Notes under the pieces: model-generated
Database searches by the model: none
The model's input: only the letters and a program-made list of their open reading frames with translations
What the model was told of the DNA's origin: nothing
From: a virus
Lineage: Duplodnaviria > Caudoviricetes
Direction: 5' to 3' (one strand)
Length of the DNA stretch: 64,000 nucleotides
IMG/VR virus record: IMGVR_UViG_3300010352_001202
Part shown: positions 4,859-56,313 of the stretch, piece after piece
Position numbering within the stretch: the stretch's first letter is position 1
Layout: each line of letters starts with the position of its first letter
Translations under genes and position numbers: made by a program

Positions 4859-4866
4859 TTTTCTAA

Positions 4867-4924
4867 AGTGTTCATTCAGCAATCCACAAAAATCAACTTT
4901 TAATTGAAAATAAAACGAACACTG
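4867..4924 (+). ncRNA. CAGCAA-family RNA with Lys(UUU)-like anticodon loop
   Basis: AGTGTTC/GAACACT-G stem, ATTCAGCAA, TCAA-CTTTTAA-TTGA. Confidence 0.75.
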
Positions 4925-4934
4925 ATTTATTCAT

Positions 4935-5205: not shown

Positions 5206-5619
5206 ATGGCACTCATCAAATGTACTCATTGCGGAAATGATAAAAGAACTTATGGCACAAGTGCTAATTTGTTTTGTTCACGGCAATGCGCTAACGATTT
5301 CCAATATGAACAGCGTGTAGCTGAATGGAAATTATCGGGAGAAAGTACAAGAATTAGCGGCACGCCAGGCTGGTTACGCAGATATTTTTTTGAGAAGCAA
5401 AATGGTAAATGCGCCGGATGTTTGAATGATACCTGGCGAGAACAACCCATAACTCTTGAATTAGAACATAAAGATGGTAACAGTGACCATAATAAGGAAG
5501 AGAATTTAGAACTTCTTTGTCCAAATTGTCACAGTCAGTCATCGACTTATAAAGCAAAGAATAAGGGTAATGGAAGACATTATCGAAGACAGCTTTATAA
5601 GGAAGGTAAAAGTTTTTAG
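5206..5619 (+). CDS. HNH endonuclease
   Basis: LELEHKDGN...N..ENLELLCPNCH. Confidence 0.9.
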   Translation: MALIKCTHCGNDKRTYGTSANLFCSRQCANDFQYEQRVAEWKLSGESTRISGTPGWLRRYFFEKQNGKCAGCLNDTWREQPITLELEHKDGNSDHNKEENLELLCPNCHSQSSTYKAKNKGNGRHYRRQLYKEGKSF

Positions 5620-5692
5620 CTCTGTTAGTTTAGTGATAGAATGCTGGTTTTGTAGTCCAGATGCGGGAGTTTGATTCTCTCACGGAGCACCA
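5619..5692 (+). tRNA. tRNA-Thr(TGT)
   Basis: Cloverleaf, loop TTTGTAG, ACCA. Confidence 0.8.
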
Positions 5693-5753
5693 CAAAAAGC
5701 TTGATTGATGTATATAAGATCCTGATTCGACACTACGGATATCAAGCACATTT

Positions 5754-5827
5754 CAGGGTATAATGAAATGGTATCATCCCACCTTTGGAGCGTGGAAGCG
5801 GTAGTTCGATTCTACCTACCCTGACCA
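5754..5827 (+). tRNA. tRNA-Pro(TGG)
   Basis: Loop TTTGGAG, GTTCGATTC, ACCA. Confidence 0.85.
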
Positions 5828-5833
5828 GAATTA

Positions 5834-5907
5834 CAGAGTATAATGAAATGGTATCATCCCACCTTCGGAGCGTGGAAGCCCAAGTTCGATTCTTGGTACT
5901 CTGACCA
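5834..5907 (+). tRNA. tRNA-Pro(CGG)
   Basis: Tandem paralog of the previous gene, loop TTCGGAG. Confidence 0.85.
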
Positions 5908-6013
5908 ATATAACACATAACAGAAAGCACAATATGGAATTTTTAGCATTCAACTTAATCATGATTATGATAATGTTATCAGCAAGTCTTGCTGAACAAC
6001 TTATCTAAGACAT

Positions 6014-6087
6014 GGCTCTGTAGCTCAATGGTAGAGCACGCGACTGATAATCGCGCGACGAAGGTCCGATTCCTTACGGAGCCACCA
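6014..6087 (+). tRNA. tRNA-Ile(GAT)
   Basis: CGCGA-CTGATAA-TCGCG. Confidence 0.9.
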
Positions 6088-6093
6088 TACAAT

Positions 6094-6168
6094 GTCCTGT
6101 TCCACTTCGGGTGAGGTGACCTGCCCTTCAAGCAGAGAAGATGGGTTCGACTCCCATACAGGATGCCA
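6094..6168 (+). tRNA. tRNA-Glu(TTC), C at position 33
   Basis: CTGC-CCTTCAA-GCAG, GCCA. Confidence 0.75.
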
Positions 6169-6175
6169 AGTTTAC

Positions 6176-6251
6176 GGGTTTGTAACTCAAATGGCTAGAG
6201 TCCTGCCTCTTAAGCAGCGAGATCCCGGTTCGATGCCGGGCGAACCCACCA
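6176..6251 (+). tRNA. tRNA-Lys(CTT)
   Basis: Loop CTCTTAA, ACCA. Confidence 0.9.
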
Positions 6252-6257
6252 AACAAC

Positions 6258-6301
6258 GGTCCGGACAGAGATCCCTAGGATATATTTCCTCTAGACCACC
6301 A
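6258..6301 (+). ncRNA. Minihelix-like CCA-ended RNA
   Basis: GGTCCGG/CTAGACC-ACCA with a single small hairpin, 44 nt. Confidence 0.45.
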
Positions 6302-6410
6302 TCAAACCGCTTCCACTTGTTTTCTATTGACATATATAAGCCTAGCGGGCCAATTTTGACCTTTCCACATCACTAAATTATATAAGGATAAAAAAAGGTC
6401 TCTTCAAAAT

Positions 6411-6527
6411 GTCGCTGTAGTGTAAAGGTAGCACAACTAAAAAGGTGATCCTGGCAAGGATACATACAGCAATCTACATTCCATTACAAGGAGTAGGTCC
6501 GGTGTTCGATTCCCGCCGGCGGCACCA
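6411..6527 (+). ncRNA. tRNA-shaped, permuted member of the CAGCAA family
   Basis: Acceptor GTCGCTG/CGGCGGC-ACCA with D and T arms; anticodon arm replaced by GTGATCCTG-GCA-AGGATAC-ATACAGCAA plus TCC-ATTACAA-GGA. Confidence 0.75.
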
Positions 6528-6589
6528 TTGACAAGGTTGAGACTGCATGTAATACTTAGTGCTCAACTTACACACCCTGAAAGGTACAC

Positions 6590-7609
6590 ATGAAGAACTA
6601 CATTGGTATTAGTCGTGACCATAGCGGCTCCATGAGCATGATTGCTAATGCAGCAGCCCGCGATTACAACGACAACATCGCTTCCATTAAGGAAGAAGCC
6701 GGCTCGTTCAACATTGACACTATTGTAAGTGTCATTAAGTGTGGAACTGGTCGCCCTGCGCAAAACCGCTGGGATGTTCAGAATTCGAATGTTACGGCGC
6801 TGAAGCCGCTGACTTCGTACATTGCAGACGGTAACTGCACTCCGCTGTTCGACAGCGTGATGATGCTTATCGACCAAATGGAAAGCGTCCCTGACGCAGC
6901 TGATCCTGAAGTTTCGTTCATGGTTATGGTCGTTACTGACGGCCAGGACAATGCTTCAAACACCAAGGGTCCGCAACTGGCGCAACGCATCAAGTCGCTT
7001 CAGGCAACTGATCGTTGGACTTTCGTCTTCCGTGTTCCGAAGGGCGACAAGGCTCCTCTGGTTCGAATGGGTCTCCCGGCAGGTAACATCCTGGAATGGG
7101 AACAAACCGAACGCGGTGTTCAGCAAGCAACTGTTGCTACCAAGTCGGCTATGCGTGGTTTCTACGCTGCTCGCTCCACTGGTGCAACCAGCACTGACAA
7201 GTTCTACGCCGACATGAGCACTACCACCTTGAATGAAGTGAAGGCCGCCCTGGTTGATATTTCCAAGGAAGTGGATGTGTATGTGGTTGATACGAAGAAC
7301 GACGGTGTCTAAATCAAGGACTTTGTGCTTGCGCAAGGTGTTACCTTTACCAAGGGCTGCGCGTTCTATGAACTGAGCAAGACCGAAACTGTGCAAGAAT
7401 ACAAGCAGATCGCCATCCGTGACAAGATTACGGGCGCTGTCTACAGCGGTTTCGCAGCACGAGATTTGCTTGGTTTGCCGCACTACGGTGAAGTAAAACT
7501 TGCTCCGGGCCAGCACGGTCAGTACAACATCTTCGTCCAGTCGACCTCCATCAACCGCAAGTTGGTGAAGGGCACGAATGTGATGATTTGGACTGCTGTA
7601 ACGGTCTAA
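6590..7609 (+). pseudogene. vWA-domain protein interrupted by in-frame TAA (7310-7312)
   Basis: MIDAS DHSGS, TPLFD, VTDGQDN; the same frame continues IKDFV...FTKGCAFYELSK. Confidence 0.7.
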
Positions 7610-7769
7610 GAAACATTAGAGTATGAGATGTATTATAACCATATCCACTACTCTACAGAACATAAGATAGATAACCGGGCCTTGATCATGCAAATCTGTT
7701 GTAAAACAGTAGGTTATCCGTAAGTCGCGGAAGTCAGGACGCCGCGTTATAAATGCGTGGCACGAATAT

Positions 7770-7844
7770 GCGGGTGTGGTGTCAGTGGTAGCATCATAGT
7801 CTTCCAAACTAAAGGTGCGGGTTCGATTCCCGCCATCCGCTCCA
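7770..7844 (+). tRNA. tRNA-Gly(TCC)
   Basis: GCGGGTG, loop CTTCCAA, TCCA. Confidence 0.92.
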
Positions 7845-7860
7845 AATAGAAAGTATCAAA

Positions 7861-8187
7861 ATGTTTAACTGGTTCAAGTTTAAGCCCAAAGAAGATTGGC
7901 GTCTTGTTAAGACTATTGTCGATGATGTATCTCGCAATAGTGGTAAAGAAAAAGGTAAATTCTATTACCATCTGTTTGAATCTAGTCGTGGAAATAGGCG
8001 CGTAGAGTTTGCTTCTACATTTAGCGATCTGGATAAGGAAGCTTTAGAAAAAGCCGGAAAGCATTTTGACACATATCAAGATATGATTTATCGTTGGGAG
8101 CATGGTCGTGTAGATCCTAACATTCCGCGATATGATCAGATCCCCGAAGAAGAGACAGTAAATGTCCTAAAGGGCAAGATTTCGTAA
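7861..8187 (+). CDS. Hypothetical protein
   Basis: ORF between RNA genes. Confidence 0.6.
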   Translation: MFNWFKFKPKEDWRLVKTIVDDVSRNSGKEKGKFYYHLFESSRGNRRVEFASTFSDLDKEALEKAGKHFDTYQDMIYRWEHGRVDPNIPRYDQIPEEETVNVLKGKIS

Positions 8188-8209
8188 TTGTGTGAGGCCT
8201 CACACAAAT

Positions 8210-8297
8210 ATTCGCGTAGTTTAAACGAAAACACCTGCTATTAGGGCATTCAGTTGTTCCAGCAGTAGATATGGGGTTTGGACCCATAGCGACTCTA
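8210..8297 (+). ncRNA. Degenerate tRNA-like element with expanded anticodon arm
   Basis: D-arm GTTT/AAAC, CTGCT..AGCAG enclosing ~21 nt, T-like ATGGG/CCCAT. Confidence 0.4.
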
Positions 8298-8332
8298 TAA
8301 TCGAAGATCGCTTATTAAATGACAACGATAGA

Positions 8333-8551
8333 GTGACATTTAAGATGCATGATCCTCATAGTAACACTGTTAGAAGATCTTATAATTCAGATAACATAGA
8401 TTTAATTGCGTTATATATTCCCGAACTAAAAGAAATAGCTTTAATTCCTATAGACAAGTTTACCACAAATGATGCGGTTGTTAGAGTTAAGGAATTAGTA
8501 GTAAAAAGAAAAAATGCAGCAATATTGTTTTCGGACTTTATTGTATGGTAA
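8333..8551 (+). pseudogene. C-terminal fragment of a PD-(D/E)XK homing endonuclease
   Basis: Y..D.IDLIALY.P.....LIP resembles the C-terminus of 15569-15994. Confidence 0.5.
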
Positions 8552-8556
8552 GTTAT

Positions 8557-8631
8557 GCCCGGTTAGCTCAATGATAGAGCAATTGCTTGATAGGCGATAG
8601 GTTGTAGGTTTGACTCCTACACTGGGTACCA
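8557..8631 (+). tRNA. tRNA-Ile(GAT)
   Basis: ATTGC-TTGATAG-GCGAT. Confidence 0.85.
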
Positions 8632-8637
8632 AACAAT

Positions 8638-8781
8638 AGTGTATCTCCGTGCGGACTTCAATCCTTGTTGCGGAACGAAGACTAGGTTAGAAACCTATAT
8701 ACACTGCCAGAGTATTGATGTATCCAGTGGCTGTAGGCTTCGACTAGGAGCATAGACTAGGTTCGATTCCTATATACATCA
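8638..8781 (+). ncRNA. Two tandem D-arm-less tRNA-like RNAs (8638-8709, 8717-8781)
   Basis: AGTGTAT/ATACACT-GCCA and GATGTAT/ATACATC; shared AGACTAGGTT.GA..CCTATATACA T-arm. Confidence 0.55.
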
Positions 8782-8792
8782 GACAAAACAAT

Positions 8793-8871
8793 TCCGCAGA
8801 AACCGAGCAAGGTGCATGGTCTTGACTGTTAATCAATGGTTAGAGTGGTTCGATTCCACTGTGCGGAGCCA
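8793..8871 (+). tRNA. tRNA-Asn(GTT)
   Basis: Loop CTGTTAA, GCCA. Confidence 0.85.
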
Positions 8872-8880
8872 GATTTTTAT

Positions 8881-8953
8881 ATGTTTATGGTGCAGTGGCA
8901 GCACTCCCTCCTTCCCAGAGGGCGACCGGGGTTCGAATCCCTGTAAACTTCTA
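8881..8953 (+). tRNA. tRNA-Gly(TCC), degenerate acceptor stem
   Basis: CCCTC-CTTCCCA-GAGGG; weak acceptor, no CCA. Confidence 0.55.
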
Positions 8954-9052
8954 TAAAACAAATGTAGAGTATTGTGTGGCCACACAATACCTAAGCAGGA
9001 GTATAGCAAGTTCCAAGGGGGAATCGTTTGCATCCTACTCCGAATCTATTAT

Positions 9053-9126
9053 GAGTCATAAGTGTTACGGTAGCACATCAGTCTCCAAAACTGAGGGCCG
9101 GGGTTCGACTCCCTGACGACTCGCCA
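9053..9126 (+). tRNA. tRNA-Trp(CCA)
   Basis: TCAGT-CTCCAAA-ACTGA. Confidence 0.9.
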
Positions 9127-9176
9127 ACAATCCGACTTTAGCTGATGTGGTCATAGCGCCTGTCATAAATATAATT

Positions 9177-9833
9177 ATGAACTATCGGCAATTTAGTAAT
9201 AAATGGATATGTAATCTTTGTGAGCGATCGTTCTCTAGCAGACAGGCCACTACATCTCATATCTACAGGGCACATACCGAGCCCGGCGTCTCGCTTGGCG
9301 GCCATAAAAAAGGCAAACCCGCATGGAACAAAGGGCTTTCTAAGGAAACAGATGCAAGGGTGGCCGAAAATGCTATTGCGGTTTCCTTAGCAACTAAGGG
9401 TCGTCCGGGACATCCGCAAACAGAGGAATCCAAAAGAAAGATAAGTCTATCTAAGTCTATCAATAATAAGGGCGGCAGATGTAAATGGTTTGAGATTGCC
9501 GGCCAGAAAGTTCAGGGGACTTGGGAACGAGATATTACACTAAAGTTTGAAGAACTTAATATCAAATGGCAGAAGCTAAAAACAAATCAACATACATTTG
9601 ATTATGTAATGGATTCTAAAACAAGATGTTATACACCGGATTTTTATCTTCCGCAATACGGCATATACCTAGAAATAAAAGGTCGCTGGTGGGGTAGAGA
9701 TAGAGAAAAAATGGATATTGTTATGAAAACATATCCTGATAAAAAGATTGTTATTATAGAAAAACAAGATTATGAAAAGATTTTGCGAGGTGAGCTAGTG
9801 TGGTCATTCCAGCGGCTGCCTGAAGAGCAGTAG
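9177..9833 (+). CDS. Homing endonuclease (zinc finger, NUMOD3-like, PD-(D/E)XK)
   Basis: CxxC..H..H, PAWNKG, YTPDFYLP...LEIKG. Confidence 0.85.
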   Translation: MNYRQFSNKWICNLCERSFSSRQATTSHIYRAHTEPGVSLGGHKKGKPAWNKGLSKETDARVAENAIAVSLATKGRPGHPQTEESKRKISLSKSINNKGGRCKWFEIAGQKVQGTWERDITLKFEELNIKWQKLKTNQHTFDYVMDSKTRCYTPDFYLPQYGIYLEIKGRWWGRDREKMDIVMKTYPDKKIVIIEKQDYEKILRGELVWSFQRLPEEQ

Positions 9834-9863
9834 AACCAGGTTCGATTCCTGGACCTCGCACCA
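9785..9863 (+). tRNA. tRNA-Phe(GAA)
   Basis: GCTGC-CTGAAGA-GCAGT, ACCA. Confidence 0.85.
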
Positions 9864-9943
9864 ACATATTGTTCGATTCCTGGAGGTCGGGCCAGGTTTA
9901 CTCTTCCTCGAGATAAATAAAAGTATAATCTCGGAGAGAAAAC

Positions 9944-10864
9944 ATGAACATTATCAAAAGTGTTTCTATCATTTTAGTTTCAGTAGTTGCGTTAGCTGGT
10001 TGTGCTTCAACACATGATTACCAGATGTATGCGCAAGGACAGGCACAAATCGAAGCAGCAAAGTATGCTGCCGAAGCAGCTCGCTTCAAGGCAATGTCAG
10101 ATATTGCAGCAAGCGGCGATCCAACAGCAAAGGTGGCAGCAGTAGTTGCCCTAGCAATGACAGGCAATGGTTCTGGCGGTAATTCGGGTAATGCAGCTCA
10201 ACTAAGAGCCCCCGAAGCACCTGGACAAACAGCACTTGCGTGGGCAAGCATCTTTGTTCCTGCATTGACACAAGGCTATAGCATCTATTCCAACACAAGA
10301 CTTGGAATGGCACAGAGCAACAACAATGCTCGCGTAGCAGAAAGCACAAACGGTGCATTCCTTGGAATGGCTGGACAAATTCAATCAACAGCAACAAGTG
10401 GTAACGCCGCTCTTGCACAGTTAGGAACATCGAGCAATACTGCTATTACAGCGGTTGCTGGTGCAGGAACACAGGCGCTAACTTCGCTTGCAACTTCGAG
10501 CAACCAGTCGCTTGTATCGCTATCAAGCTTAATTCAAGCACCGCAACCTAATGTAAGTTATACATTGAGCGGTACTGGTGTTCTAGGTAACGGAACATAT
10601 ACAACCACAGCTAACTCGTTAGGTGGCAATGGTGTAATTGGTTCTGGTTCATATAGCACACAACAGAATCCAGTACTGAGCGGAACTGGTGTTATTGGTA
10701 GTGGAACACATAATCCATCTACAGTAACAACACCTGCTCCTGTAGTTATTACTCCTGTTGTAACAACACCACCTGTTGTTATTACACCAGTAAACAATGT
10801 TACTCCAGTAGTTATTACTCCTGTGGTTGTAACACCGCCAGCAGCGGCTGCATCAGCACCGTAA
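9944..10864 (+). CDS. Lipoprotein with Pro/Val/Thr-rich tail
   Basis: Lipobox LAGC; G.GVIGSG and PVVIT repeats. Confidence 0.75.
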   Translation: MNIIKSVSIILVSVVALAGCASTHDYQMYAQGQAQIEAAKYAAEAARFKAMSDIAASGDPTAKVAAVVALAMTGNGSGGNSGNAAQLRAPEAPGQTALAWASIFVPALTQGYSIYSNTRLGMAQSNNNARVAESTNGAFLGMAGQIQSTATSGNAALAQLGTSSNTAITAVAGAGTQALTSLATSSNQSLVSLSSLIQAPQPNVSYTLSGTGVLGNGTYTTTANSLGGNGVIGSGSYSTQQNPVLSGTGVIGSGTHNPSTVTTPAPVVITPVVTTPPVVITPVNNVTPVVITPVVVTPPAAAASAP

Positions 10865-10916
10865 GTTGGTTTAGTATTTTCACATAGTAGGTGCTCTTGC
10901 ACCTACTTTCATTTAT

Positions 10917-10993
10917 GCCCCCGTACGCTAATTGGTAGTGCGGATTGATTTAGAATCAGTTGGTTGGGAGTTCGAATCTGCCCGGGGGTACCA
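10917..10993 (+). tRNA. tRNA-Leu(TAG), short V arm
   Basis: ATTGA-TTTAGAA-TCAGT. Confidence 0.85.
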
Positions 10994-10999
10994 AGTTTA

Positions 11000-11102
11000 A
11001 GGGATGGTTGCAGCAAACAAAAATTACTCTTACCATAATCAAGAGGCCGGCCCGCTGGGGGTGTGTCGTGGGTTCGAGTCCCGGCTTAGACACCTCATCC
11101 CG
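11000..11102 (+). ncRNA. CAGCAA-family RNA with T-loop and CAU-containing hairpin
   Basis: GGGATG/CATCCC-G, TTGCAGCAA, CTCTT-ACCATAATC-AAGAG, GGGTTCGAGTCCC. Confidence 0.7.
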
Positions 11103-11118
11103 ATTTTATTTGACCGTT

Positions 11119-11235
11119 AGGTTCGTTTCAGCAAACAATATAATTCATCTTCAAAATGAAAGATCTGGGTTCGAATCCCAGCAGTAGGGTTGGTCACTAC
11201 TGTCGTCTAATGGATAGGATATAAATACGAACCTG
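11119..11235 (+). ncRNA. CAGCAA-family RNA with permuted tRNA domain and UCA anticodon loop
   Basis: AGGTTCG/CGAACCT-G; TTCAT-CTTCAAA-ATGAA; T arm; loop-closed acceptor CAGTAG/CTACTG; D arm. Confidence 0.8.
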
Positions 11236-11248
11236 TTTTTAATTCAAT

Positions 11249-11322
11249 GGTGTTAGTAGTGTAGTGGTAGCAAGCTTGTCTGTGAAACAAGAAGCGAGGG
11301 TTCGATTCCCCCTTTCACCCCA
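11249..11322 (+). tRNA. tRNA-His(GTG)
   Basis: G-1, CTTGT-CTGTGAA-ACAAG, CCCA. Confidence 0.88.
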
Positions 11323-11329
11323 ATAGTTT

Positions 11330-11526
11330 GGTTGTTTAGCTCAGACGAGAGCACGGAAGAAACCTCTTAACAATGTTGGTCTCCGGGGTCGCAGAAGTAA
11401 TGCCCTGCAACAGCCACCAAATCGATACCGTCGTCATTATCCGGAGCAAATCCTTCCGGGTTCTAAATGAACAAGGCGCCTAGATGCTGGCGTATATTAC
11501 AGGTTAGATTCCTGTCGGCGATGCCA
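11330..11526 (+). ncRNA. Two atypical CCA-ended tRNA-like RNAs (11330-11419, 11430-11526)
   Basis: GGTTGTT/AACAGCC-ACCA with elongated anticodon arm; the second has four hairpins, T-arm ACAGGTTAGATTCCTGT, GCCA. Confidence 0.55.
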
Positions 11527-11666
11527 GTTGCTTTCCTGTAGTGGCTGTCTTATAATAAATACAGATATATAACTATGCGAGCGTCCTTCCGCTTATCTAC
11601 AATGCTCTAAGGTGCCGCAGCGGAAATGCGGTGAAAATTTGTCGTTATTTCTATCTAAAGAACAAT

Positions 11667-11743
11667 GTGCGTGTGACCCGAATTGGCGAGGGAACAGATT
11701 GCAACCCTGTTATATGTAGGTTCAAGTCCTATCACGCACTCCA
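11667..11743 (+). tRNA. tRNA-Cys(GCA)
   Basis: Loop TTGCAAC, TCCA. Confidence 0.88.
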
Positions 11744-11753
11744 AAATTTGATA

Positions 11754-11920
11754 CATTCTACAACGGGTTGCAGAGAGTGCAACATTATCAAACCGCTGTG
11801 GAGGCGTTGGCAGCCCACTATACTCGGAGAGCCATATTCGAGTGTTTAGTCCTTTAATGGATGAGGCCCTCGGCACCCTGTCGGTCTGGTGGAGGCAGGA
11901 TAGAAGCTAACTGTAGAATG
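11754..11920 (+). ncRNA. Unassigned multi-hairpin RNA
   Basis: Closing CATTCTACA/TGTAGAATG; internal GTTGCA/TGCAAC, ACTCG/CGAGT. Confidence 0.45.
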
Positions 11921-11931
11921 AACTATTCAAT

Positions 11932-12008
11932 GCCCCCGTACGCTAATTGGTAGTGCGGTCTGATTCAAAATCATATGGTTGTAGGTTCGAATCCAACCGG
12001 GGGTACCA
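11932..12008 (+). tRNA. tRNA-Leu(CAA), short V arm
   Basis: Loop TTCAAAA; same body as 10917. Confidence 0.85.
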
Positions 12009-12030
12009 AAAATATTACGATAAATATAGG

Positions 12031-12723
12031 ATGATCCTAAATTTAGCAAACGGTAATCTAAGCACGGTATTAGACTTTTCTATACCTACCACACTTCCCG
12101 AAGTAGGAAGTATTAACAACATATCTGTATTTTCGTCCGGCGGACTTGATTCGGGTGCATTGTTATGTTTGATAATGTCGGAACTTAAGGCAACAGGTCA
12201 GCTCGACACATTACCGGTAACCTGCTACACAGGTATAAAATACGACGGTGCAACATATTATGCATCGCGTCTGGTATCAAAGATAGCAGAACATTTTTCG
12301 TGTAACATTATTCATAACAACAATGTCGAAAACGATGTTGTAGAGACAGGCCGATTCAGATTTATTGCATCAACTGAACCCAATACCGTTGTGTATGCAG
12401 GTATCAGTCGAATGGTGCCAGAATCGGTAAAAGAATTTAAGAATAAGCTAAAGGTAAAGTATCCAAACGAATTTGGAAAATACAAGTTTCCTTTTTTGAA
12501 TATGGCAAAGCCACAGATACTAGATATCTATTATAAGCTTGGTTGTGAAGACATTATACAATACACGCATTCGTGTGTAAATTTAGCTGTAAGTAAATGC
12601 AATAATTGCTATTCATGCGAAGAGCGAGCCTGGGCATTTACAGAGTTAATGAAATCTGATACAGGGACTGTGCCACCGGATGTAGTAGACATATCCTACA
12701 ACGGCACTTGGCAAGTTTCGTAA
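12031..12723 (+). CDS. QueC-like PP-loop ATPase
   Basis: SGGLDS, PFLNMAK, THSC...CNNCYSCEER. Confidence 0.75.
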   Translation: MILNLANGNLSTVLDFSIPTTLPEVGSINNISVFSSGGLDSGALLCLIMSELKATGQLDTLPVTCYTGIKYDGATYYASRLVSKIAEHFSCNIIHNNNVENDVVETGRFRFIASTEPNTVVYAGISRMVPESVKEFKNKLKVKYPNEFGKYKFPFLNMAKPQILDIYYKLGCEDIIQYTHSCVNLAVSKCNNCYSCEERAWAFTELMKSDTGTVPPDVVDISYNGTWQVS

Positions 12724-18082: not shown

Positions 18083-18547
18083 ATGCATATTATGACAAAT
18101 AAGATTTCGTTTATAGATTTTGAAACTATATTGCCTATTTGGAGAAATAAACTTTGGCCAGACAGAACATCCGTCATCGAAAGTCATAGTGCAATGATGA
18201 TCACTCCCGGAATATACGATGCAGGTAATTTTAATTTACCTATATGGTATTATGGCTTTTACTTAGATGATATGTTGGTCGGTGTGAACAGCGTGCATGA
18301 ATGCACCGATGGGCTAATAAGGAGTCGTGGATTCTGGGTCGACGACAATTATCGTGGCAGGGGAATAGGTACACAATTGCTTGCAAGCATCGTAAATGAC
18401 ATAAAAATGCACAAATTTAAAGGCATATGGTCATATCCCCGTAAGCAGGCGTGGTCAGTGTATGAGCGTGTAGGTTTTAGATCTATTTCCGACTGGGAAG
18501 AAAGTGAGACAGGCACGAATATGTATTGTTACATGGATTTACAATGA
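18083..18547 (+). CDS. GNAT acetyltransferase
   Basis: VDDNYRGRGIGTQLL; YERVGF. Confidence 0.85.
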   Translation: MHIMTNKISFIDFETILPIWRNKLWPDRTSVIESHSAMMITPGIYDAGNFNLPIWYYGFYLDDMLVGVNSVHECTDGLIRSRGFWVDDNYRGRGIGTQLLASIVNDIKMHKFKGIWSYPRKQAWSVYERVGFRSISDWEESETGTNMYCYMDLQ

Positions 18548-20085
18548 CAGTTGATGTTTTAATTTTCACAGATTGTGCTTCGCGGGCATTTTTAAGAACA
18601 GCAGGTGCATATACGATCGCGACTGTGTTGAGAAAGAATGGCTACACCGTACAGGTTGTAGATTATTTCTTATTATCCGGTTTAGAAAGAGCTCTGGCAA
18701 CGATTGATAAATTTGTAGGCGAGAACACTCTATTTGTTGGATTTGCAACCACATTTATGAATTTAAGTGGGGTGCATTTATCCGAGTCTGCAAAAAATGA
18801 TAAAATGTTTTCATATCATGGATATGAGCGAACTGCATTCGTATTAGGTACAGCAGCATTATCGACTCGTGTACCTGTTTCTGATAATGAGATGGACCAG
18901 ATAAGAGACAGAATCAAACTAAGAAATCCTAAAACAAAGCTGGTAATGGGCGGCACGAAAGCAGACAACAGAAGTCAGCCACAAATAGATACATTTATAC
19001 TCGGGTATGCCGATAACTCAGTTATTGAGTATACGAAATTCCTTGAGGGGAAAAATCCTTTCTTTAGATACACATTAAATGAACATCATCAAATGATTGT
19101 TGACCACGACCTCGATGCATCTGGTTATGATTTTGTTCACTCAACTATCGAATATGACGAGAGCGATCTAATTAAACATAATGAGGTATTGTCATTAGAA
19201 ATTGCACGCGGTTGCATTTTCAAATGCAAGTTTTGCAATTTTAGATTAACGGGAAAAAAGAAAAACGATTACATTAAAGATAAAGAGGTAATTTATTCTG
19301 AATTAATGAATAATTATGAAAGATTTGGCACAACAAAATATTCCTTTGCTGATGATACATATAATGAATCAGTACAGAAGTTAGAACACTTTGCTGAGGT
19401 ATTTCAGAAGTTGCCCTTTAAACTAGAATTTGTTGCCTACCTAAGGCACGACCTTATTTGGCGTTATCCGGAGATGGCTGATATTCTTAGACAGAGCGGA
19501 CTAAAGGTGGCGATGTTTGGAATCGAAACACTAAATCACGAAGCCGGTAAGATTATTGGTAAAGGATTGCCACCAGAGAAAACAACCGAGTTGTTGCATT
19601 GGTTGCGCAAAGAAAAGGGTTGGGCCGGTAATATCTTAATGAATTCGGGATTTATTGTTGGACTACCTACCGAGACGGAAGATACAGTAAATAAATGGAC
19701 AGAAGAGCTTATGGATTTTAATTATCCGTTAGATTCTTTTCTAATAAATCCTCTAGGCATAACTCCGCGTTCTCCTAAATTATCAAAATCCGAATTTGAT
19801 ATAAATTACAAAGATTACGGATATTATTTTGATCCGAAGGTATCTGTGGGATGGATAAACGAACATTGGAGAATCGAGGATGTAAGAAGATTGTGTACAG
19901 TCATTGACAAATATGCTACAGAAATAGGTCGAATTAAATTATACGGATTTAGCACAATGACACTTCATAACTATGGCTATACATGGGATGATATACACAA
20001 TTCTGTATCAGCCAATTATACAAACTCCATTTTCTACGAAACTGTAAAGCAGGCAGATTCATACTATAAAGAATTATTAAAATGA
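18544..20085 (+). CDS. Radical SAM enzyme with B12-binding-like N-terminus
   Basis: RGCIFKCKFC, DDTYN, FGIETLN, GFIVGLP. Confidence 0.9.
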   Translation: MTVDVLIFTDCASRAFLRTAGAYTIATVLRKNGYTVQVVDYFLLSGLERALATIDKFVGENTLFVGFATTFMNLSGVHLSESAKNDKMFSYHGYERTAFVLGTAALSTRVPVSDNEMDQIRDRIKLRNPKTKLVMGGTKADNRSQPQIDTFILGYADNSVIEYTKFLEGKNPFFRYTLNEHHQMIVDHDLDASGYDFVHSTIEYDESDLIKHNEVLSLEIARGCIFKCKFCNFRLTGKKKNDYIKDKEVIYSELMNNYERFGTTKYSFADDTYNESVQKLEHFAEVFQKLPFKLEFVAYLRHDLIWRYPEMADILRQSGLKVAMFGIETLNHEAGKIIGKGLPPEKTTELLHWLRKEKGWAGNILMNSGFIVGLPTETEDTVNKWTEELMDFNYPLDSFLINPLGITPRSPKLSKSEFDINYKDYGYYFDPKVSVGWINEHWRIEDVRRLCTVIDKYATEIGRIKLYGFSTMTLHNYGYTWDDIHNSVSANYTNSIFYETVKQADSYYKELLK

Positions 20086-20603
20086 AAGAAGACTCAATTC
20101 TTACTCACCTTGGCAGGGTGCTAACGCAGCAAGAAGTAACTGATGCTATGACTTATATCAAGTCTAACCGATTACTTTTTGTCAATCGTCCTTACATGTG
20201 TGATGAACAGGTAGGTGGATATCCTCTTGCATATGTATGCCAAAAATCACAAGAACTTGATAGTATTATCAAGGCATTAGAACAGGCATTGTTATCAACA
20301 AGTCATTTAGACAATACACGAATTATCGAGCGTGGCATCGGTATTTCGCCTGAGGATTTATCTTTTGATAATGTTGTTGATAGTAAAGAGATAGCACTGC
20401 TATCTAAACAGGTAAGAATCCCGCTATCGGGGATTTCAAAAATTAATGATGAACTGTTGGGACTAGGGCTTGCTTATATTGTTGATACTGTAAGCGGGTA
20501 TAGTTTCTCAGCGAGTAAAGATTCAACTCATTTGGTATTTAACTTCCTCAGTAACGATGAAGTAAGAAAACCGTGGGAACTATGGAAGAATAGAGAATTA
20601 TGA
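20082..20603 (+). CDS. Hypothetical protein
   Basis: Translationally coupled ORF. Confidence 0.65.
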   Translation: MKEDSILTHLGRVLTQQEVTDAMTYIKSNRLLFVNRPYMCDEQVGGYPLAYVCQKSQELDSIIKALEQALLSTSHLDNTRIIERGIGISPEDLSFDNVVDSKEIALLSKQVRIPLSGISKINDELLGLGLAYIVDTVSGYSFSASKDSTHLVFNFLSNDEVRKPWELWKNREL

Positions 20604-22138
20604 CTGTAGATGTAATTATATTTTCTGATTGCTCTTCTGAAGCATCTATTAGATATGCAGGCGCATATACAATAGCATCTTCATTGCGCGAGGCCGGCTT
20701 CACTGTTCAGGTAGTTGATTATTTTCTGCTTACGGGATTAGAAAAAGCATATAAGATTATTGATAAATTTCTGGGTGAGAATACATTGTTTGTCGGGTTT
20801 TCTACAACATTTATGAATGTCTCGTGGGAGCATAAAAAGGCACACCAGACAGATCCGTCGATGTTTAGATTTGACAATTTTACACAGATGCAATTGGGTG
20901 CATCAACCCATAACGGTTATTCATACGGTGTGCCGATATCCGAAGATGAAATGCTTCAGATTCAGCAGTATATCAAGAATAAGAATTCTAAGACAAAACT
21001 TGTTCTCGGCGGAACAAAAGCAGATTTTACTTATCAGAAATATATTGATACATTTATCCTGGGATACGCAGATAAATCGGCAGTCGAATATGCAAAATTT
21101 CTACAAGGAAAAAATCCGTTCTTTAGGTATAGAATAAATGATAAATTGCAAATGGTCGTTGATTATGACATTGATGCCAAGTCTCACGATTTTGTCAATT
21201 CTCGTATTGAGTATGACTCTAGCGACCTTGCACGCCCAGACGAACCTTTGCCGATTGAAATTTCAAGAGGATGTATTTTTAAATGTAAATTCTGTAATTT
21301 TAGAATGATTGGCAAGAAGAAAAACGATTACATTAAAGACAAGGAAGTAATATATTCTGCGCTAATGAGTAACTATGAAAAGTTCGGTACAACAAAGTAT
21401 TCTATCACTGACGATACATGGAATGAATCTGTCGGTAAGCTCGAGATGTTTGCGGAAGTATGCCAACGATTGCCTTTTAAGATAGAATATGTTTCTTATC
21501 TAAGGCTTGACTTAATATGGCGTTATCCGGAGATGGCCGACCTCCTGAGAGAGACAGGGCTTAAAGCAACAGCATTTGGAATCGAAACACTAAATCACGA
21601 AGCTGGTAAAATTATCGGCAAGGGATTGCATCCAGAGAAAGTCAGGGAAACACTTCATACTCTTAGAGATAGCAAAGGTTGGAGAAATAATATTCTAATG
21701 TTCTCTGGATTCATCGTTGGCCTGCCTACAGAAACAAGAGACACTGTAAATAAGTGGGTAGAAGAATTAATGGACTTTAATTATCCGTTAGATGCATTTC
21801 AGTTAAATGCTTTATTTTTAGGAAACAATAAACATAAATCCGAATTTGATTTGAATTATAAGGATTATGGTTATTGGTATGATAAGAAAGTTTCTACTGG
21901 CTGGATCAATGAGCATTGGCGTGTGGAAGATGCGGGCGAGTTATCTTCAAATATGCACAATTATGGACTTAGCATTGGCCGACTAAAAGCAAATGGATTC
22001 TATTCTATGATTATGCAAAATTACGGATTTACATGGGAAGATGTACACAACACATCAATGGTCGGATATGGATCTTTATTTCAGAAGACTCTTACACATG
22101 CCAACACATACCATGAGAGATTGTTGAACGAAGTATGA
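20600..22138 (+). CDS. Radical SAM enzyme (paralog of 18544)
   Basis: RGCIFKCKFC; long identical blocks with 18544-20085. Confidence 0.9.
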   Translation: MTVDVIIFSDCSSEASIRYAGAYTIASSLREAGFTVQVVDYFLLTGLEKAYKIIDKFLGENTLFVGFSTTFMNVSWEHKKAHQTDPSMFRFDNFTQMQLGASTHNGYSYGVPISEDEMLQIQQYIKNKNSKTKLVLGGTKADFTYQKYIDTFILGYADKSAVEYAKFLQGKNPFFRYRINDKLQMVVDYDIDAKSHDFVNSRIEYDSSDLARPDEPLPIEISRGCIFKCKFCNFRMIGKKKNDYIKDKEVIYSALMSNYEKFGTTKYSITDDTWNESVGKLEMFAEVCQRLPFKIEYVSYLRLDLIWRYPEMADLLRETGLKATAFGIETLNHEAGKIIGKGLHPEKVRETLHTLRDSKGWRNNILMFSGFIVGLPTETRDTVNKWVEELMDFNYPLDAFQLNALFLGNNKHKSEFDLNYKDYGYWYDKKVSTGWINEHWRVEDAGELSSNMHNYGLSIGRLKANGFYSMIMQNYGFTWEDVHNTSMVGYGSLFQKTLTHANTYHERLLNEV

Positions 22139-29030: not shown

Positions 29031-29049
29031 CGCCGAGGGAATGGTTATT

Positions 29050-29245
29050 TTGGTGTCCGATCTAACGCTGGCAACAGAGGAAGTTCAGGACTTGCGCCGA
29101 GTGCGAGTGGGAGACCTTGGTCGTTATTACCACCGTGATATAGCAAGCAACACAAACAGAACCTGGGAACATTCGGCCTATAGGTTCGGGTTGTGGCAAA
29201 GATGAATGTTAGAGTTGAAACAGAATCCTGGCTATGAGACACCAA
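29050..29245 (+). ncRNA. rnpB: Minimal RNase P RNA
   Basis: P1 TTGGTGTC/GACACCAA; GAGGAAGTTCAGGAC and AACAGAATCCTGGCTAT form P4; ~195 nt. Confidence 0.75.
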
Positions 29246-29288
29246 ATTTTTTATACGGGTTGTAGCACTATATTAGATAAATAGTATT

Positions 29289-30997: not shown

Positions 30998-31029
30998 AAA
31001 TATATATTATAGTTTTAGTTATTGTTGTA

Positions 31030-31327: not shown

Positions 31328-31328
31328 T

Positions 31329-31350
31329 TATAGGGACTTCGGTCCCTATA
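31329..31350 (+). terminator. Hairpin terminator after tmRNA
   Basis: TATAGGGAC-TTCG-GTCCCTATA. Confidence 0.7.
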
Positions 31351-31460
31351 ATTATGACTTTTATTTCAAGGTTGACATTTCAAGAATAATGTCATATACT
31401 AGATAAACTTTATAAATAAAAGTTCCGCTCAAGATGGGCGGATTACAAGAGGAAAATAAT

Positions 31461-54024: not shown

Positions 54025-54030
54025 TTTTAA

Positions 54031-54150
54031 AGATTCCGTTCCGCAACTAAAATTAATAAACCGAGGTATGTGGGTTCGAGCCCCACTCTCATTGGCAACA
54101 GTGAGATAGTCGAATTGGTATAGACATTGGTCAAATAAAAAGCGAATCTG
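54031..54150 (+). ncRNA. YrlA-like RNA: CAGCAA-family stem plus permuted tRNA domain
   Basis: AGATTC/GAATCT-G, TTCCGCAA; ACCGA/TTGGT; T arm GTGGGTTCGAGCCCCAC; closed acceptor TCTCATT/AGTGAGA; D arm GTCGAATTGGTATAGAC. Confidence 0.85.
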
Positions 54151-54152
54151 AT

Positions 54153-54924: not shown

Positions 54925-56313
54925 ATGACAACACTATTTGAAGCAGTAAACGCAAACGCAACAACAGCAAACGGGGCCGTGACAAACGCATCGTCTCTAA
55001 ATAAAAATGTGGACCTTTTCTTCCTTGCTGGTGCAAGCCGCGGTAAGGATATCACTTCTACCTTCGCCGGAGCCTTCGTTGAAGACTCCGAAGTTGCAAC
55101 TCGTATCCTTCAGTGGGCACGTGATGCACGCGGTGGAGCAGGTGAGCGTGAAACTTTCCGTAAGTTGTTCGGCTATCTGTTGAAGAACGAAATCGCAATC
55201 GCTTCTCGCGTGCTTGTAAAGGCACCTGAGCTTGGCCGTTGGGACGACGTTTTGATCGCCTTCGGTACACCTATCGAGCGTGAAGCTCTGCGTATGATCG
55301 CCTTTGCTTTGAACGAAGTAAAGGATGGTCTGTGCGCAAAGTGGATGCCGCGTCAGGGTGCGGAAGCGAACAAGATTCGCTCGTACATGAAGTTGACTCC
55401 GAAGCAATATCGTAAGCTCTTGGTTGGCTTGTCCAACACTGTTGAGCAGAAGATGTGTGCCCAGGATTGGACTGGAATCGTGTATCCGCATGTTCCGTCG
55501 GTTGCTGCTGGTCGTTACCAGAAGGCTTTCTTGAAGCACGATCCTTCGGGATATGCGAAGTACAAGGAAAAGCTGGTTTCGGGCGAAGCGAAGATCAACG
55601 CATCGGTTGCTTACCCGTACGACGTGATTCGTTCACTTCGTAACGGCGATAAGGTTGTTGCTAACGCACAATGGGATGCATTGCCAAACTATCTTGAAGG
55701 TTCGGACGAAAACATCCTCCCGGTTGTTGACGTTTCGGGTTCTATGGATTTCCAAGTGTCTGGTAGCGTAACTGCTATGGACGTTGCGATCTCCTTGGGA
55801 TTGTACACTTCGGAACGTATGGGTGGTGTGTTCAAGGACCAGTTCGTGACATTCTCGAGCCAGCCGGAAATGCTGCACTTGAAGGGCAACCTTCAACAGC
55901 GTTATGACGCAATGGCTCGTTCCAACTGGGCAATGAGCACAGATATCCAGGCTGTGTTCAAGTTGATCTTGACTTCGGCAACGAAGCATAAGGTTGCTCA
56001 GAAGGAAATGCCGACAAAGATCCTGATCTTGTCGGACATGGAATTCAACACTTGCGTTACTGGCGGAACAAGCGTTAGCGCAATGAACATGATTGAGAAG
56101 GAATATGCTGCCGCAGGGTACAAGGTTCCGCAGGTTGTGTTCTGGAACCTGAAGGGTCGTGCTGGAAACAGCCCGGTTACCTACAACCAGTCCGGAACTG
56201 CACTTGTGTCGGGCTTCTCTCCGAGCATCGTTAAGTCGGTACTTGGTGGTGAAGAAATGACACCGATCAGCATCATGCTGAAGACTGTAATGGTCCAGAG
56301 ATACGACTTCTAA
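54925..56313 (+). CDS. DUF2828-family protein (Ro60/TROVE-like helical domain + vWA)
   Basis: T.NGA, RD.RGG.GER, GRWDD, AKWMPR, VDVSGSM, LSDMEF, VFWNL, SGFSP. Confidence 0.85.
   Translation: MTTLFEAVNANATTANGAVTNASSLNKNVDLFFLAGASRGKDITSTFAGAFVEDSEVATRILQWARDARGGAGERETFRKLFGYLLKNEIAIASRVLVKAPELGRWDDVLIAFGTPIEREALRMIAFALNEVKDGLCAKWMPRQGAEANKIRSYMKLTPKQYRKLLVGLSNTVEQKMCAQDWTGIVYPHVPSVAAGRYQKAFLKHDPSGYAKYKEKLVSGEAKINASVAYPYDVIRSLRNGDKVVANAQWDALPNYLEGSDENILPVVDVSGSMDFQVSGSVTAMDVAISLGLYTSERMGGVFKDQFVTFSSQPEMLHLKGNLQQRYDAMARSNWAMSTDIQAVFKLILTSATKHKVAQKEMPTKILILSDMEFNTCVTGGTSVSAMNMIEKEYAAAGYKVPQVVFWNLKGRAGNSPVTYNQSGTALVSGFSPSIVKSVLGGEEMTPISIMLKTVMVQRYDF

What the first reader, a model, noticed from the sequence alone, without database searches (positions are those of the whole stretch)
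6411..6527. The same RNA module occurs in both circular permutations
Seen: at 54031 and 11119 the RNA ends lie in the CAGCAA stem and the tRNA acceptor stem is sealed by a loop (order T arm, acceptor, D arm). At 6411 the ends form an open acceptor stem with encoded ACCA, and the CAGCAA stem is sealed instead (GTGATCCTG-GCA-AGGATAC-ATACAGCAA). This independently supports the structural model. Inference: 6411 could be an RNase P-processed, possibly aminoacylated adaptor, and may be an intermediate between tRNA and YrlA-like RNA.
Basis: partly seen in the sequence, partly recalled or inferred. Interest (0 to 1): 0.8.

Follow-up and report, generated by a model that had tools for sequence, protein, structure and literature searches.

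The report
tRNA-shaped phage RNA, permuted handle
A giant phage encodes a conserved small RNA built like a complete tRNA with a free CCA end, plus the clamp-helix-and-CAGCAA "handle" found on the partner RNAs of its Ro60-like protein. It is the same module as the phage's sealed-acceptor tRNA mimics with the chain ends moved, a rare natural circular permutation of a non-coding RNA.

Summary

- **A real, conserved RNA gene.** 6411-6527 has acceptor stem, D arm, anticodon-like arm, T arm and an encoded ACCA. An inserted hairpin followed by unpaired ACAGCAA lies between the D and anticodon-like arms.
- **Widespread in phages.** I found 12 copies in related jumbo phages and 41 more distinct ones in other viral contigs, with strong covariation. 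None of 120 pattern matches in cellular genomes was one.
- **The hairpin is the terminal handle joined end to end.** The window's other CAGCAA RNAs start (A)AG and end CUG. Here these termini are joined as CUG-NN-AAG.
- **The two gene orders are homologous.** The sealed-acceptor RNA at 11119, cut in its acceptor loop and rotated, aligns along its whole length with open-acceptor copies. The score is 118, against 78 unrotated and 60 shuffled.
- **Not a working tRNA-Val.** The "anticodon" triplet is the most variable part of the molecule.
- **Linked to a Ro60-like protein.** The RNA travels with a DUF2828/DUF7788 protein whose model matches Ro60.
- **Best reading.** It is a Y-RNA-like tRNA mimic with an open CCA end, the gene-encoded counterpart of RNase P-cleaved Mycobacterium smegmatis YrlA.

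Binding, processing and charging are untested. The scan has met this handle family, and one similar permuted copy, before on other DNA.

The parts
6411..6417 (+). Acceptor stem, 5' strand (GUCGCUG)
   Evidence: Pairs with 6517-6523. Across 41 distinct relatives, 6 of the 7 pairs show changes on both sides.
6420..6434 (+). D arm (GUGU-AAAGGUA-GCAC)
   Evidence: Aligned by the Rfam tRNA model. The helix is 100% paired with 3 covarying pairs. GG is present in the D loop of 45 of 49 copies.
6445..6463 (+). Sealed handle helix: GUGAUCCU, GGCA tetraloop, AGGAUAC. It equals the 3' strand ...CUG and the 5' strand AAG... of the terminal handles, joined by 2 nt.
   Evidence: The helix covaries: L002 has CACUCU/AGAGUG and L008 has UUUUUCU/AGAAAA. 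CUG-NN-AAG is invariant in the 12 copies found by synteny.
6464..6472 (+). Unpaired AUACAGCAA motif (CAGCAA at 6467-6472)
   Evidence: CAGCA is present in all 12 syntenic copies (L008). The same motif follows the 5' strand of at least 13 terminal handles in the window. It matches the 11-nt motif of Dictyostelium Class I RNA, Rfam RF01414 consensus (PMC7919456).
6478..6494 (+). Anticodon-like arm AUUCC-AUUACAA-GGAGU
   Evidence: The stem covaries. Loop positions 33, 37 and 38 are conserved, while the triplet columns carry 1.5-1.8 bits of entropy.
6500..6516 (+). T arm: CGG(U)G, UUCGAUU, CCCGC
   Evidence: Aligned by the Rfam tRNA model. The loop UUCGAWU is kept in 39 of 49 copies. This copy has a C-C mismatch at the outermost pair.
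6517..6527 (+). Acceptor 3' strand CGGCGGC, discriminator A, encoded CCA
   Evidence: NCCA is kept in 45 of 49 distinct copies.
6528..6556 (+). Promoter-like site (TTGACA, 17 nt, AATACT with TG) for the downstream vWA gene. It starts right after the CCA, so the 3' end must be made by processing.
   Evidence: TTGACA after the CCA also occurs in the relatives.
11119..11235 (+). Sealed-acceptor permutation. Order: terminal handle AGGUUCGU/ACGAACCU+G, UUCAGCAA, anticodon-like arm, T arm, loop-closed acceptor, D arm.
54031..54150 (+). Second sealed-acceptor tRNA mimic, with UUCCGCAA and a 7-bp sealed acceptor
54925..56313 (+). Ro60-like protein (DUF2828 + DUF7788, phrog_850 'RNA-binding protein'), the candidate handle-binding partner
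   Evidence: Co-occurrence with the RNA.
29049..29250 (+). RNase P-like RNA, a possible processing enzyme (context only)
   Evidence: RF00010 at 42.7 bits, local E-value 7e-12, below the threshold of 100.

Best explanation
**What it is.** 6411-6527 is the gene of a roughly 117-nt non-coding RNA. It is a tRNA mimic of the Y-RNA kind, not a decoding tRNA.

**The fold.** The RNA forms a full cloverleaf with an open 7-bp acceptor stem and an encoded ACCA. Between the D stem and the anticodon-like stem it carries the handle: a 6-8-bp helix followed by unpaired ACAGCAA. In this phage, the same handle closes more than a dozen other small RNAs at their termini.

**Inferred binding.** The handle is the docking site for the phage's Ro60-like ring protein (DUF2828/DUF7788, 54925-56313). 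The tRNA-shaped body is the effector or stabilising module, as in YrlA.

**The permutation.** The gene is a circular permutation of the sealed-acceptor mimics at 11119 and 54031. In this copy the handle termini (...CUG and AAG...) are joined by two nucleotides into a GNNA loop, and the acceptor is open.

**Inferred maturation.** The 5' end is made by RNase P and the 3' end by trimming to the encoded CCA. The result would resemble RNase P-cleaved, CCA-tailed M. smegmatis YrlA, but in one piece.

**Inferred origin.** The two orders arose from each other through a tandem duplication followed by loss of the outer halves.
For: **Real gene and fold**
- 12 copies in related jumbo phages score at least 96 bits, and 56 more hits (41 distinct) were found in viral contigs.
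- 95% of cells are paired; 124 double-change cells against 31 in shuffles; the slid controls give 40-53% paired.

**Handle identity**
- Terminal handles in the window start (A)AG and end CU+G. The sealed copies all read CUG-NN-AAG, then CAGCA 2-4 nt after the helix.
- Among regex matches in loci not chosen by the handle, 17 of 46 have 3 or more further pairs, against about 2.4 expected by my own calculation.

**Homology of the two orders**
- Rotated 11119 against the open-acceptor copy in L118 scores 118, against 78 unrotated and 60 +/- 5 shuffled. The best cut points lie in or next to the acceptor hairpin.
- 54031 scores 83, against 55 unrotated and 61 +/- 4.5 shuffled.
- A 100%-complete 383-kb phage record holds that body only in the open-acceptor order.

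**Not a decoding tRNA**
- With the insert removed in silico, ARAGORN of 12 syntenic copies, with seven different anticodons. Three copies are never called.
- The triplet columns are the most variable unpaired positions, while U33, A37 and A38 are kept.
- The nearest window tRNA to the body is tRNA-Gly (72% identity), not tRNA-Val.

**Protein link**
- A DUF2828 homologue lies on the same strand in 17 of 55 loci found by the RNA alone.
- It lies elsewhere in 8 of 10 further records, including 4 of 4 that are at least 62% complete, and in 0 of 14 control genomes.
- The protein model (pLDDT 82) matches Ro60/TROVE structures over its full length. These include phage phiLo Ro60, Xenopus Ro60 with RNA and Deinococcus Rsr.

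**Precedent**
- M. smegmatis YrlA is cut by RNase P and gains CCA in vivo while still bound to Rsr (PMC4201824).
- The YrlA structure paper proposed a dimeric-tRNA origin (bioRxiv 10.1101/312249).
- L080 holds two open-acceptor genes 5 nt apart.
Against: - No binding, expression or end-mapping data exist. The protein link is co-occurrence only.
- In the window the protein gene lies 48 kb away.
- None of the 80 DUF2828 loci (6-kb flanks) held this RNA type.
- tRNA clusters and RNA-metabolism genes tend to travel together in such phages, which inflates co-occurrence.
- The handle columns in the 41-sequence set are invariant by ascertainment. Handle covariation therefore rests on fewer, syntenic or regex-found copies.
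- The window's own copy has a T-stem mismatch.
- GUC is the commonest triplet, about a third of copies. In one subgroup it goes with G73, so some selection on the loop cannot be excluded.
Confidence: 0.62

Rival explanations
1. It is a genuine decoding tRNA (tRNA-Val UAC here) whose handle is an intron-like insert at position 26/27. The insert would be removed by an unknown phage endonuclease plus the phage RNA ligase, or tolerated in the mature tRNA.
For: - With the insert removed in silico, ARAGORN calls a tRNA in 9 of 12 copies.
- U33, A37 and A38, the CCA end and the D/T-loop elbow nucleotides are conserved.
- An RNA ligase is encoded at 50663-51760.
- In one subgroup GUC goes with G73.
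Against: - Syntenic copies with near-identical acceptor and D arms carry UAC, CAC, UCC, UCU, GUC, CAU or GAU.
- 8-nt loops occur, and three copies have a non-canonical T loop and no GG in the D loop.
- The window already has two canonical tRNA-Val(UAC) genes.
- A 92-nt variant has the handle in place of the anticodon arm, leaving no tRNA once the insert is removed.
- By eye, no bulge-helix-bulge motif flanks the insert.
- The insert's single-stranded motif is conserved like that of a mature functional element.
Confidence: 0.08
2. The two gene orders converge on one mature form. The GNNA loop of the open-acceptor RNA would be cut to give AAG and CUG termini (a two-piece RNA). Alternatively, the sealed-acceptor RNAs would be ligated at the handle and opened by RNase P.
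For: - CUG and AAG, which are the termini of the other handle RNAs, are invariant, while the two loop nucleotides vary freely at 1.5 bits each.
- The phage encodes an RNA ligase and an RNase P-like RNA.
- The same window holds a permuted two-piece tmRNA gene.
- M. smegmatis YrlA exists as two pieces in vivo.
Against: - A GNNA loop on a U-A pair is an ordinary stable cap with variable middle bases.
- The sealed acceptor loops carry no CCA.
- No nuclease for the handle is known.
Confidence: 0.1
3. The handle-bearing RNA is real, but the handle binds something other than the DUF2828 protein. Candidates are a host factor or the neighbouring vWA/MIDAS protein (6590-7312).
For: - In the jumbo-phage clade the RNA lies directly upstream of the vWA gene in 9 of 12 copies. 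That protein has a DxSGS...T...TDG MIDAS motif.
- Dictyostelium Class I RNAs carry the same motif, and at least one RRM protein (Rnp1A/Cibp) directly binds one of them (PMC7919456).
Against: - The vWA synteny is limited to the close clade: 4 of 55 RNA-ascertained loci, at least three of them on records already in the protein-seeded set.
- The DUF2828 co-occurrence holds across distant phages.
Confidence: 0.15
4. It is a decaying tRNA pseudogene that was hit by a mobile hairpin.
For: - It scores below the tRNA threshold.
- The window's copy has a T-stem mismatch.
Against: - 49 distinct full-length copies have compensatory changes in all helices and a retained CCA.
- The position, the linker sequences and the motif are conserved.
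Confidence: 0.03

Closest known systems
YrlA (tRNA-like Y RNA of bacteria and mycobacteriophages bound by Rsr/Ro60; Chen et al. 2014, PMC4201824). [quoted passage not shown]
   Same: - A tRNA-like D arm, T arm and acceptor joined to a protein-binding stem.
- Encoded in genomes that carry a Ro60-type ring protein.
- The M. smegmatis form has an open acceptor stem with a CCA tail, like 6411.
   Different: - No Rfam match to any family other than tRNA at E up to 10, and no GNCGAAN0-1G motif. The conserved element is ACAGCAA instead.
- The partner protein is DUF2828/DUF7788, not Pfam TROVE.
- The gene order is that of a normal tRNA, with the stem sealed, so the RNA is one piece.
- A separate anticodon-like arm is kept.
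Dictyostelium Class I RNAs (Rfam RF01414; Kjellin et al. 2021, PMC7919456)
   Same: - A short covarying terminal stem.
- Conserved AAG start and CUGU end.
- The motif (CC)UUACAGCAA directly after the 5' strand.
- A variable remainder.
   Different: - Class I RNAs are 42-65 nt, eukaryotic and reported as unique to dictyostelids.
- 11120-11167 scores only 22.4 bits against a threshold of 41.5.
- In 6411 the termini are joined and the cargo is a whole tRNA shape.
One-piece versus two-piece (permuted) tmRNA, and the circularly permuted tRNA genes of Cyanidioschyzon
   Same: - Natural circular permutation of a tRNA-like RNA gene, with the break moved between the acceptor and another helix.
- A permuted tmRNA gene lies in this same window.
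   Different: - Those permutations yield working tRNA or tmRNA after processing.
- Here neither order looks like a decoder, and the sealed acceptor loops carry no CCA.
Thermus phage phiLo Ro60 with Yrl1/Yrl2 (PMC12135203; PDB 9KOP, 9L5Y)
   Same: - A phage-encoded Ro60-type ring with phage-encoded partner RNAs.
- It is the best structural match of the window's protein.
   Different: - The phiLo RNAs were picked by a CGAA motif and lie next to the gene.
- No CAGCAA handle or tRNA-ordered form is mentioned: the words CAGCAA and YrlA are absent from that text.

Membership tests
tRNA (Rfam RF00005) | Score at or above the gathering threshold (29 bits), or a call by a tRNA finder | tested here: not met
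   22.4 bits with a 53-nt insertion. ARAGORN makes no call, with or without its intron option.
tRNA (Rfam RF00005) | Cloverleaf arms, elbow nucleotides and a 3' CCA | tested here: met
tRNA (Rfam RF00005) | Anticodon conserved among orthologues (decoding function) | tested here: not met
   Seven different triplets in 9 callable syntenic copies. The triplet columns carry 1.5-1.8 bits of entropy.
YrlA (Rfam RF02553; Chen et al. 2014) | Match to the family's covariance model | tested here: not met
   At E up to 10, the only match for 6300-6650 is tRNA. There is no YrlA match at 11000-11260 or 53950-54250 either.
YrlA (Rfam RF02553; Chen et al. 2014) | GNCGAAN0-1G motif near the 5' end (the proposed Rsr site) | tested here: not met
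   Absent from 6411-6527, 11119-11235 and 54031-54150 on reading the sequence.
YrlA (Rfam RF02553; Chen et al. 2014) | tRNA-like T arm, acceptor and D arm, with the chain ends in the protein-binding stem and the acceptor closed | tested here: not met
   6411 has the arms but the opposite topology. 11119 and 54031 do meet this feature.
YrlA (Rfam RF02553; Chen et al. 2014) | Encoded with a Ro60 (TROVE) protein | tested here: inconclusive
   There is no Pfam TROVE hit. The DUF2828/DUF7788 protein is structurally Ro60-like and co-occurs with the RNA.
Dictyostelium Class I RNA (Rfam RF01414) | Gathering score of 41.5 bits | tested here: not met
   11120-11167 scores 22.4 bits. There is no hit at 6411, which the model cannot align because the element is permuted.
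Dictyostelium Class I RNA (Rfam RF01414) | AAG start, CUG(U) end, 6-bp stem, conserved motif ending CAGCAA after the 5' strand | tested here: met
   Terminal copies. In 6411 the same letters are joined as CUG-GC-AAG. Relatives read AGGAUCC-UUACAGCAA. Paper: PMC7919456.
CAGCAA-handle RNAs linked to DUF2828 (working name in this scan; I found no paper) | Covarying helix AG.../...CU+G, unpaired CAGCAA 1-4 nt after the 5' strand, and a genome that encodes DUF2828/DUF7788 | tested here: met
Permuted or intron-containing tRNA genes processed by a splicing endonuclease (Cyanidioschyzon, archaea) | Bulge-helix-bulge motif at the junctions and a functional tRNA product | tested here: inconclusive
   No bulge-helix-bulge motif is seen by eye around 6436-6477. 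The product cannot be tested with these tools.

The most novel reading that the evidence does not exclude
The open CCA end is functional, and the two gene orders are stages of one RNA-processing pathway.
- RNase P (possibly the phage's own mini RNase P RNA) and the phage RNA ligase would interconvert sealed-acceptor, circular and open-acceptor forms.
- At least some open-acceptor members would be aminoacylated. Five copies carry G3-U70 with A73, the alanine identity set that tmRNA uses. Another subgroup carries GUC with G73.
- A Ro60-like particle would thereby be tethered to aminoacyl-tRNA synthetases, EF-Tu or ribosomes during infection.
Probability: 0.12. Interest if true: 0.88.

Novelty: new variant of a known kind. 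Interest (0 to 1): 0.62.

Why it matters
- **A proof of structure by evolution.** Natural circular permutations of structured RNAs are rare. Here the same helices, linkers and motif are kept although the chain ends moved. The conserved termini AAG and CUG survive as a sealed loop, which suggests they are recognition elements rather than by-products of transcription or processing.
- **A test case for the origin of YrlA.** The YrlA literature proposed that tRNA-like Y RNAs arose from dimeric tRNAs and might be processed into tRNA-like forms. This family provides the un-permuted counterpart and a tandem arrangement.
- **A link across kingdoms.** It ties phage Ro60-like proteins to an RNA motif so far described only in social amoebae.
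- **A tractable experiment.** A small RNA with a defined handle and a partner protein can be tested for binding, processing and charging in E. coli.

Tried and rejected
- **T4 species 1 and 2 RNAs (rnaC, rnaD).** I fetched and read them. They have tRNA-like ends but no handle hairpin and no collinearity, so I dropped the lead.
- **Rfam.** At gathering and at E up to 10 there was nothing but tRNA for 6411.
- **Exact 29-mer of the insert in viral contigs.** No match.
- **BLAST of 5500-12500 against deposited phages.** Only scattered tRNA-sized hits, so there is no cultured close relative.
- **Model R1 on 80 DUF2828 loci.** No open-acceptor copy within 6 kb of those genes. The RNA is therefore not a fixed neighbour of the protein gene.
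- **Synteny with the downstream vWA gene.** Real, but limited to the close jumbo-phage clade, and biased by how I found those loci.
- **Handle pattern in 596 Gb of cellular genomes.** These are chance matches, so no host clue was gained.
- **My first handle scan.** It was too permissive, and it wrongly paired 4866 with 5043 around tRNA-Asp. Reading the sequence shows an ordinary 60-nt handle RNA at 4866-4926.
- **MFE folding of single sequences.** Not informative: z-scores were -1.2 to -2.1 and the cloverleaf was not recovered.

Full report
**Setting**

The window is part of an uncultured jumbo phage.
- It holds 46 tRNA genes and a permuted tmRNA gene, all on the + strand.
- It has no close relative among deposited phages.
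- No whole genome is held for it.

**Anatomy of 6411-6527**

| Part | Coordinates | Sequence |
|---|---|---|
| Acceptor 5' strand | 6411-6417 | GUCGCUG |
| D arm | 6420-6434 | GUGU-AAAGGUA-GCAC |
| A-rich linker | 6435-6444 | AACUAAAAAG |
| Hairpin | 6445-6463 | GUGAUCCU, GGCA, AGGAUAC |
| Unpaired motif | 6464-6472 | AUACAGCAA |
| Anticodon-like arm | 6478-6494 | AUUCC-AUUACAA-GGAGU |
| Spacer | 6495-6499 | AGGUC |
| T arm | 6500-6516 | CGG(U)G, UUCGAUU, CCCGC |
| Acceptor 3' strand | 6517-6523 | CGGCGGC |
| Discriminator and CCA | 6524-6527 | ACCA |

- The Rfam tRNA model aligns the element end to end, treating 53 nt as an insertion. It scores 22.4 bits, below the threshold of 29. ARAGORN ignores it.
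- A promoter-like site for the next gene starts at the base after the CCA.
They have a terminal stem, then UUCAGCAA or UUCCGCAA, then T arm, a loop-closed acceptor and a D arm.
- At 11119 the tRNA model also finds an anticodon-like arm before the T arm.

**Is it a real gene?**

Using the downstream protein as bait, I fetched 49 related jumbo-phage loci.
- Nine have the same RNA directly upstream of that gene.
- Three more have it close by: in L006 about 630 nt upstream of the gene, in L007 and L008 about 1.1 kb downstream of its start.
- A covariance model built from 11 of them scores all 12 at 96-125 bits. Ordinary tRNAs score below 50.

A pattern for the commonest hairpin sequence then recovered at least 117 viral stretches.
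- 56 of the first 100 loci are full-length copies, 41 of them distinct.
- On that set, 95% of cells pair.
- 13 of 21 pairs change on both sides.
- There are 124 double-change cells against 31 in shuffles.
- Sliding the partner columns drops pairing to 40-53%.

None was followed by a T loop. The RNA is therefore a widespread, phage-borne family.

**Is the hairpin the same thing as the terminal CAGCAA stems?**

- The window's terminal handles begin (A)AG and end CU followed by G. CAGCAA lies 1-4 nt after the 5' strand.
- Every syntenic copy of the 6411 RNA reads ...CUG-NN-AAG..., then the helix strand, then NUWCAGCA.
- So the conserved 3' end and the conserved 5' start of the terminal form are joined by two free nucleotides. 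This gives a GNNA loop on a U-A pair.
- The helix covaries: GAUCCU/AGGAUC, CACUCU/AGAGUG, UUUUCU/AGAAAA and AUUCU/AGAAU.
- In loci not chosen by this motif, 17 of 46 regex matches have 3 or more further pairs, and the distribution is bimodal. By my own calculation about 2.4 would be expected by chance.
- These letters are also the hallmarks of Dictyostelium Class I RNAs. Those have an AAG start, a CUGU end, a 6-bp stem and an 11-nt motif that reads CCUUACAGCAA in the Rfam consensus (PMC7919456). The Rfam model touches 11120-11167 at 22.4 bits.

**Are the two gene orders homologous?**

Yes.
- I cut the 11119 RNA inside its acceptor loop and joined its ends. It then aligns collinearly with open-acceptor copies. 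The best partner is L118, with a score of 118. Unrotated it scores 78, and shuffled 60 +/- 5. The best cut points fall in or next to the acceptor hairpin.
- The alignment runs through the D arm, the UAUAAA linker, the handle, UCAGCA, the anticodon-like arm and an identical 22-nt T-arm stretch.
- 54031 behaves the same way more weakly: 83 rotated, 55 unrotated, 61 +/- 4.5 shuffled.
- In the complete 383-kb record that holds L118, the only match to the 11119 RNA is that open-acceptor gene.
- L080 has two open-acceptor genes 5 nt apart. This is the arrangement from which loss of the outer halves would give a sealed-acceptor gene. It fits the dimeric-tRNA origin proposed for YrlA (bioRxiv 10.1101/312249). 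The direction of change is not established.

**Is it a tRNA-Val with an intron?**

Unlikely.
- With the insert removed in silico, ARAGORN of 12 syntenic copies. The anticodons are UAC, CAC, UCC, UCU, GUC, CAU and GAU, on near-identical acceptor and D arms. Three copies are never called.
- Across 41 sequences the triplet columns carry 1.5-1.8 bits of entropy. Positions 33, 37 and 38 are nearly fixed. Some loops have 8 nt.
- The body resembles the window's tRNA-Gly genes (71-72% identity), not its two tRNA-Val(UAC) genes.
- A 92-nt variant in relatives has the handle in place of the anticodon arm.
- The CCA end is kept as NCCA in 45 of 49 copies, so the open end is probably used. One subgroup of five has G3-U70 with A73. 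Charging remains open.

**Partner protein**

- The 462-aa protein at 54925-56313 is DUF2828 + DUF7788, phrog_850 'RNA-binding protein'.
- Its AlphaFold model (pLDDT 82) matches Ro60/TROVE structures over its full length. The matches include Thermus phage phiLo Ro60, Xenopus Ro60 with RNA and Deinococcus Rsr.
- In loci found through the RNA alone, 17 of 55 carry a homologue on the same strand within 10 kb.
- Of ten further RNA-bearing records, eight carry one elsewhere. That includes all four that are at least 62% complete. None of 14 control genomes does.
- Conversely, none of 80 protein-centred loci had the RNA within 6 kb. The link is therefore at genome level and is not proof of binding.

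**Context for processing**

- An RNase P-like RNA lies at 29049-29250: 42.7 bits, below threshold, local E-value 7e-12.
- An RNA ligase is encoded at 50663-51760.
- M. smegmatis YrlA is cut by RNase P and receives CCA in vivo while bound to Rsr (PMC4201824). This makes the 6411 RNA its gene-encoded, one-piece analogue.

**Verdict**

- The YrlA-like reading holds for the shape but fails the family tests.
- The adaptor reading is unproven.
- The scan has reported the CAGCAA-handle/DUF2828 family in many other genomes, and one similar permuted copy elsewhere. I used those notes as leads only.

Noticed in passing
window 7310-7312 (gene 6590-7609): The downstream vWA/MIDAS gene (phrog_26613) has an in-frame TAA exactly where 14 of 15 homologues checked have Gln (DGVQIKDF). 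It splits a 340-aa protein into ORFs of 240 and 94 aa. This could be a nonsense mutation, a sequencing error or a read-through site.
   Followed up: partly
window 58744-58837: A 94-nt tRNA with anticodon UAU and a long variable arm (GCACUAGAUAGGUGC), which is unusual for tRNA-Ile. Similar genes occur in L016, L043, L024, L014 and L013.
   Followed up: partly
L001 7944-8035, L008 12057-12146, L002 7115-7207: A 92-nt tRNA-shaped RNA with CCA (L002's copy ends UCU instead), in which the sealed handle (CAUUCUG-UU-AAGAAUG, then AUACMGCAA) takes the place of the whole anticodon arm.
   Followed up: partly
L080 8597-8818 (- strand): Two different open-acceptor handle RNAs in tandem, separated by only UUCAU. 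This is the arrangement needed for permutation by duplication.
   Followed up: partly
L104 9808-9931, L150 9199-9320, L074 648-770, L096 4937-5059, L082 627-749: A subgroup of the family has the acceptor GGGGCCU/GGGCUCC with G3-U70, G2-C71 and A73. This is the alanine identity set also used by tmRNA.
   Followed up: no
window 29049-29250: A 202-nt stretch aligns to the whole bacterial type-A RNase P model at 42.7 bits (local E-value 7e-12), below the family threshold. It is a candidate miniature phage RNase P RNA.
   Followed up: partly
window 30971-31354: A permuted (two-piece type) tmRNA gene in a phage, with tag peptide ANANTFETVALDLSALADSDMALAA.
   Followed up: no
window 4866-4926: A 60-nt terminal-handle RNA (AAGUGUUC...GAACACUG with AUUCAGCAA), the size of a Dictyostelium Class I RNA, lies immediately upstream of tRNA-Asp.
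   Followed up: partly
L006 about 9771-9960: An apparent HNH-type nuclease reading frame lies between the handle RNA and the vWA gene, which are adjacent in the other relatives.
   Followed up: no
window 18526-22138 and 34277-35659: Three radical-SAM proteins, two with weak (below-threshold) matches to the B12-binding domain, lie inside the tRNA region. A QueC-like protein lies at 11947-12723 and a tRNA-methyltransferase-like protein at 22135-22968.
   Followed up: no
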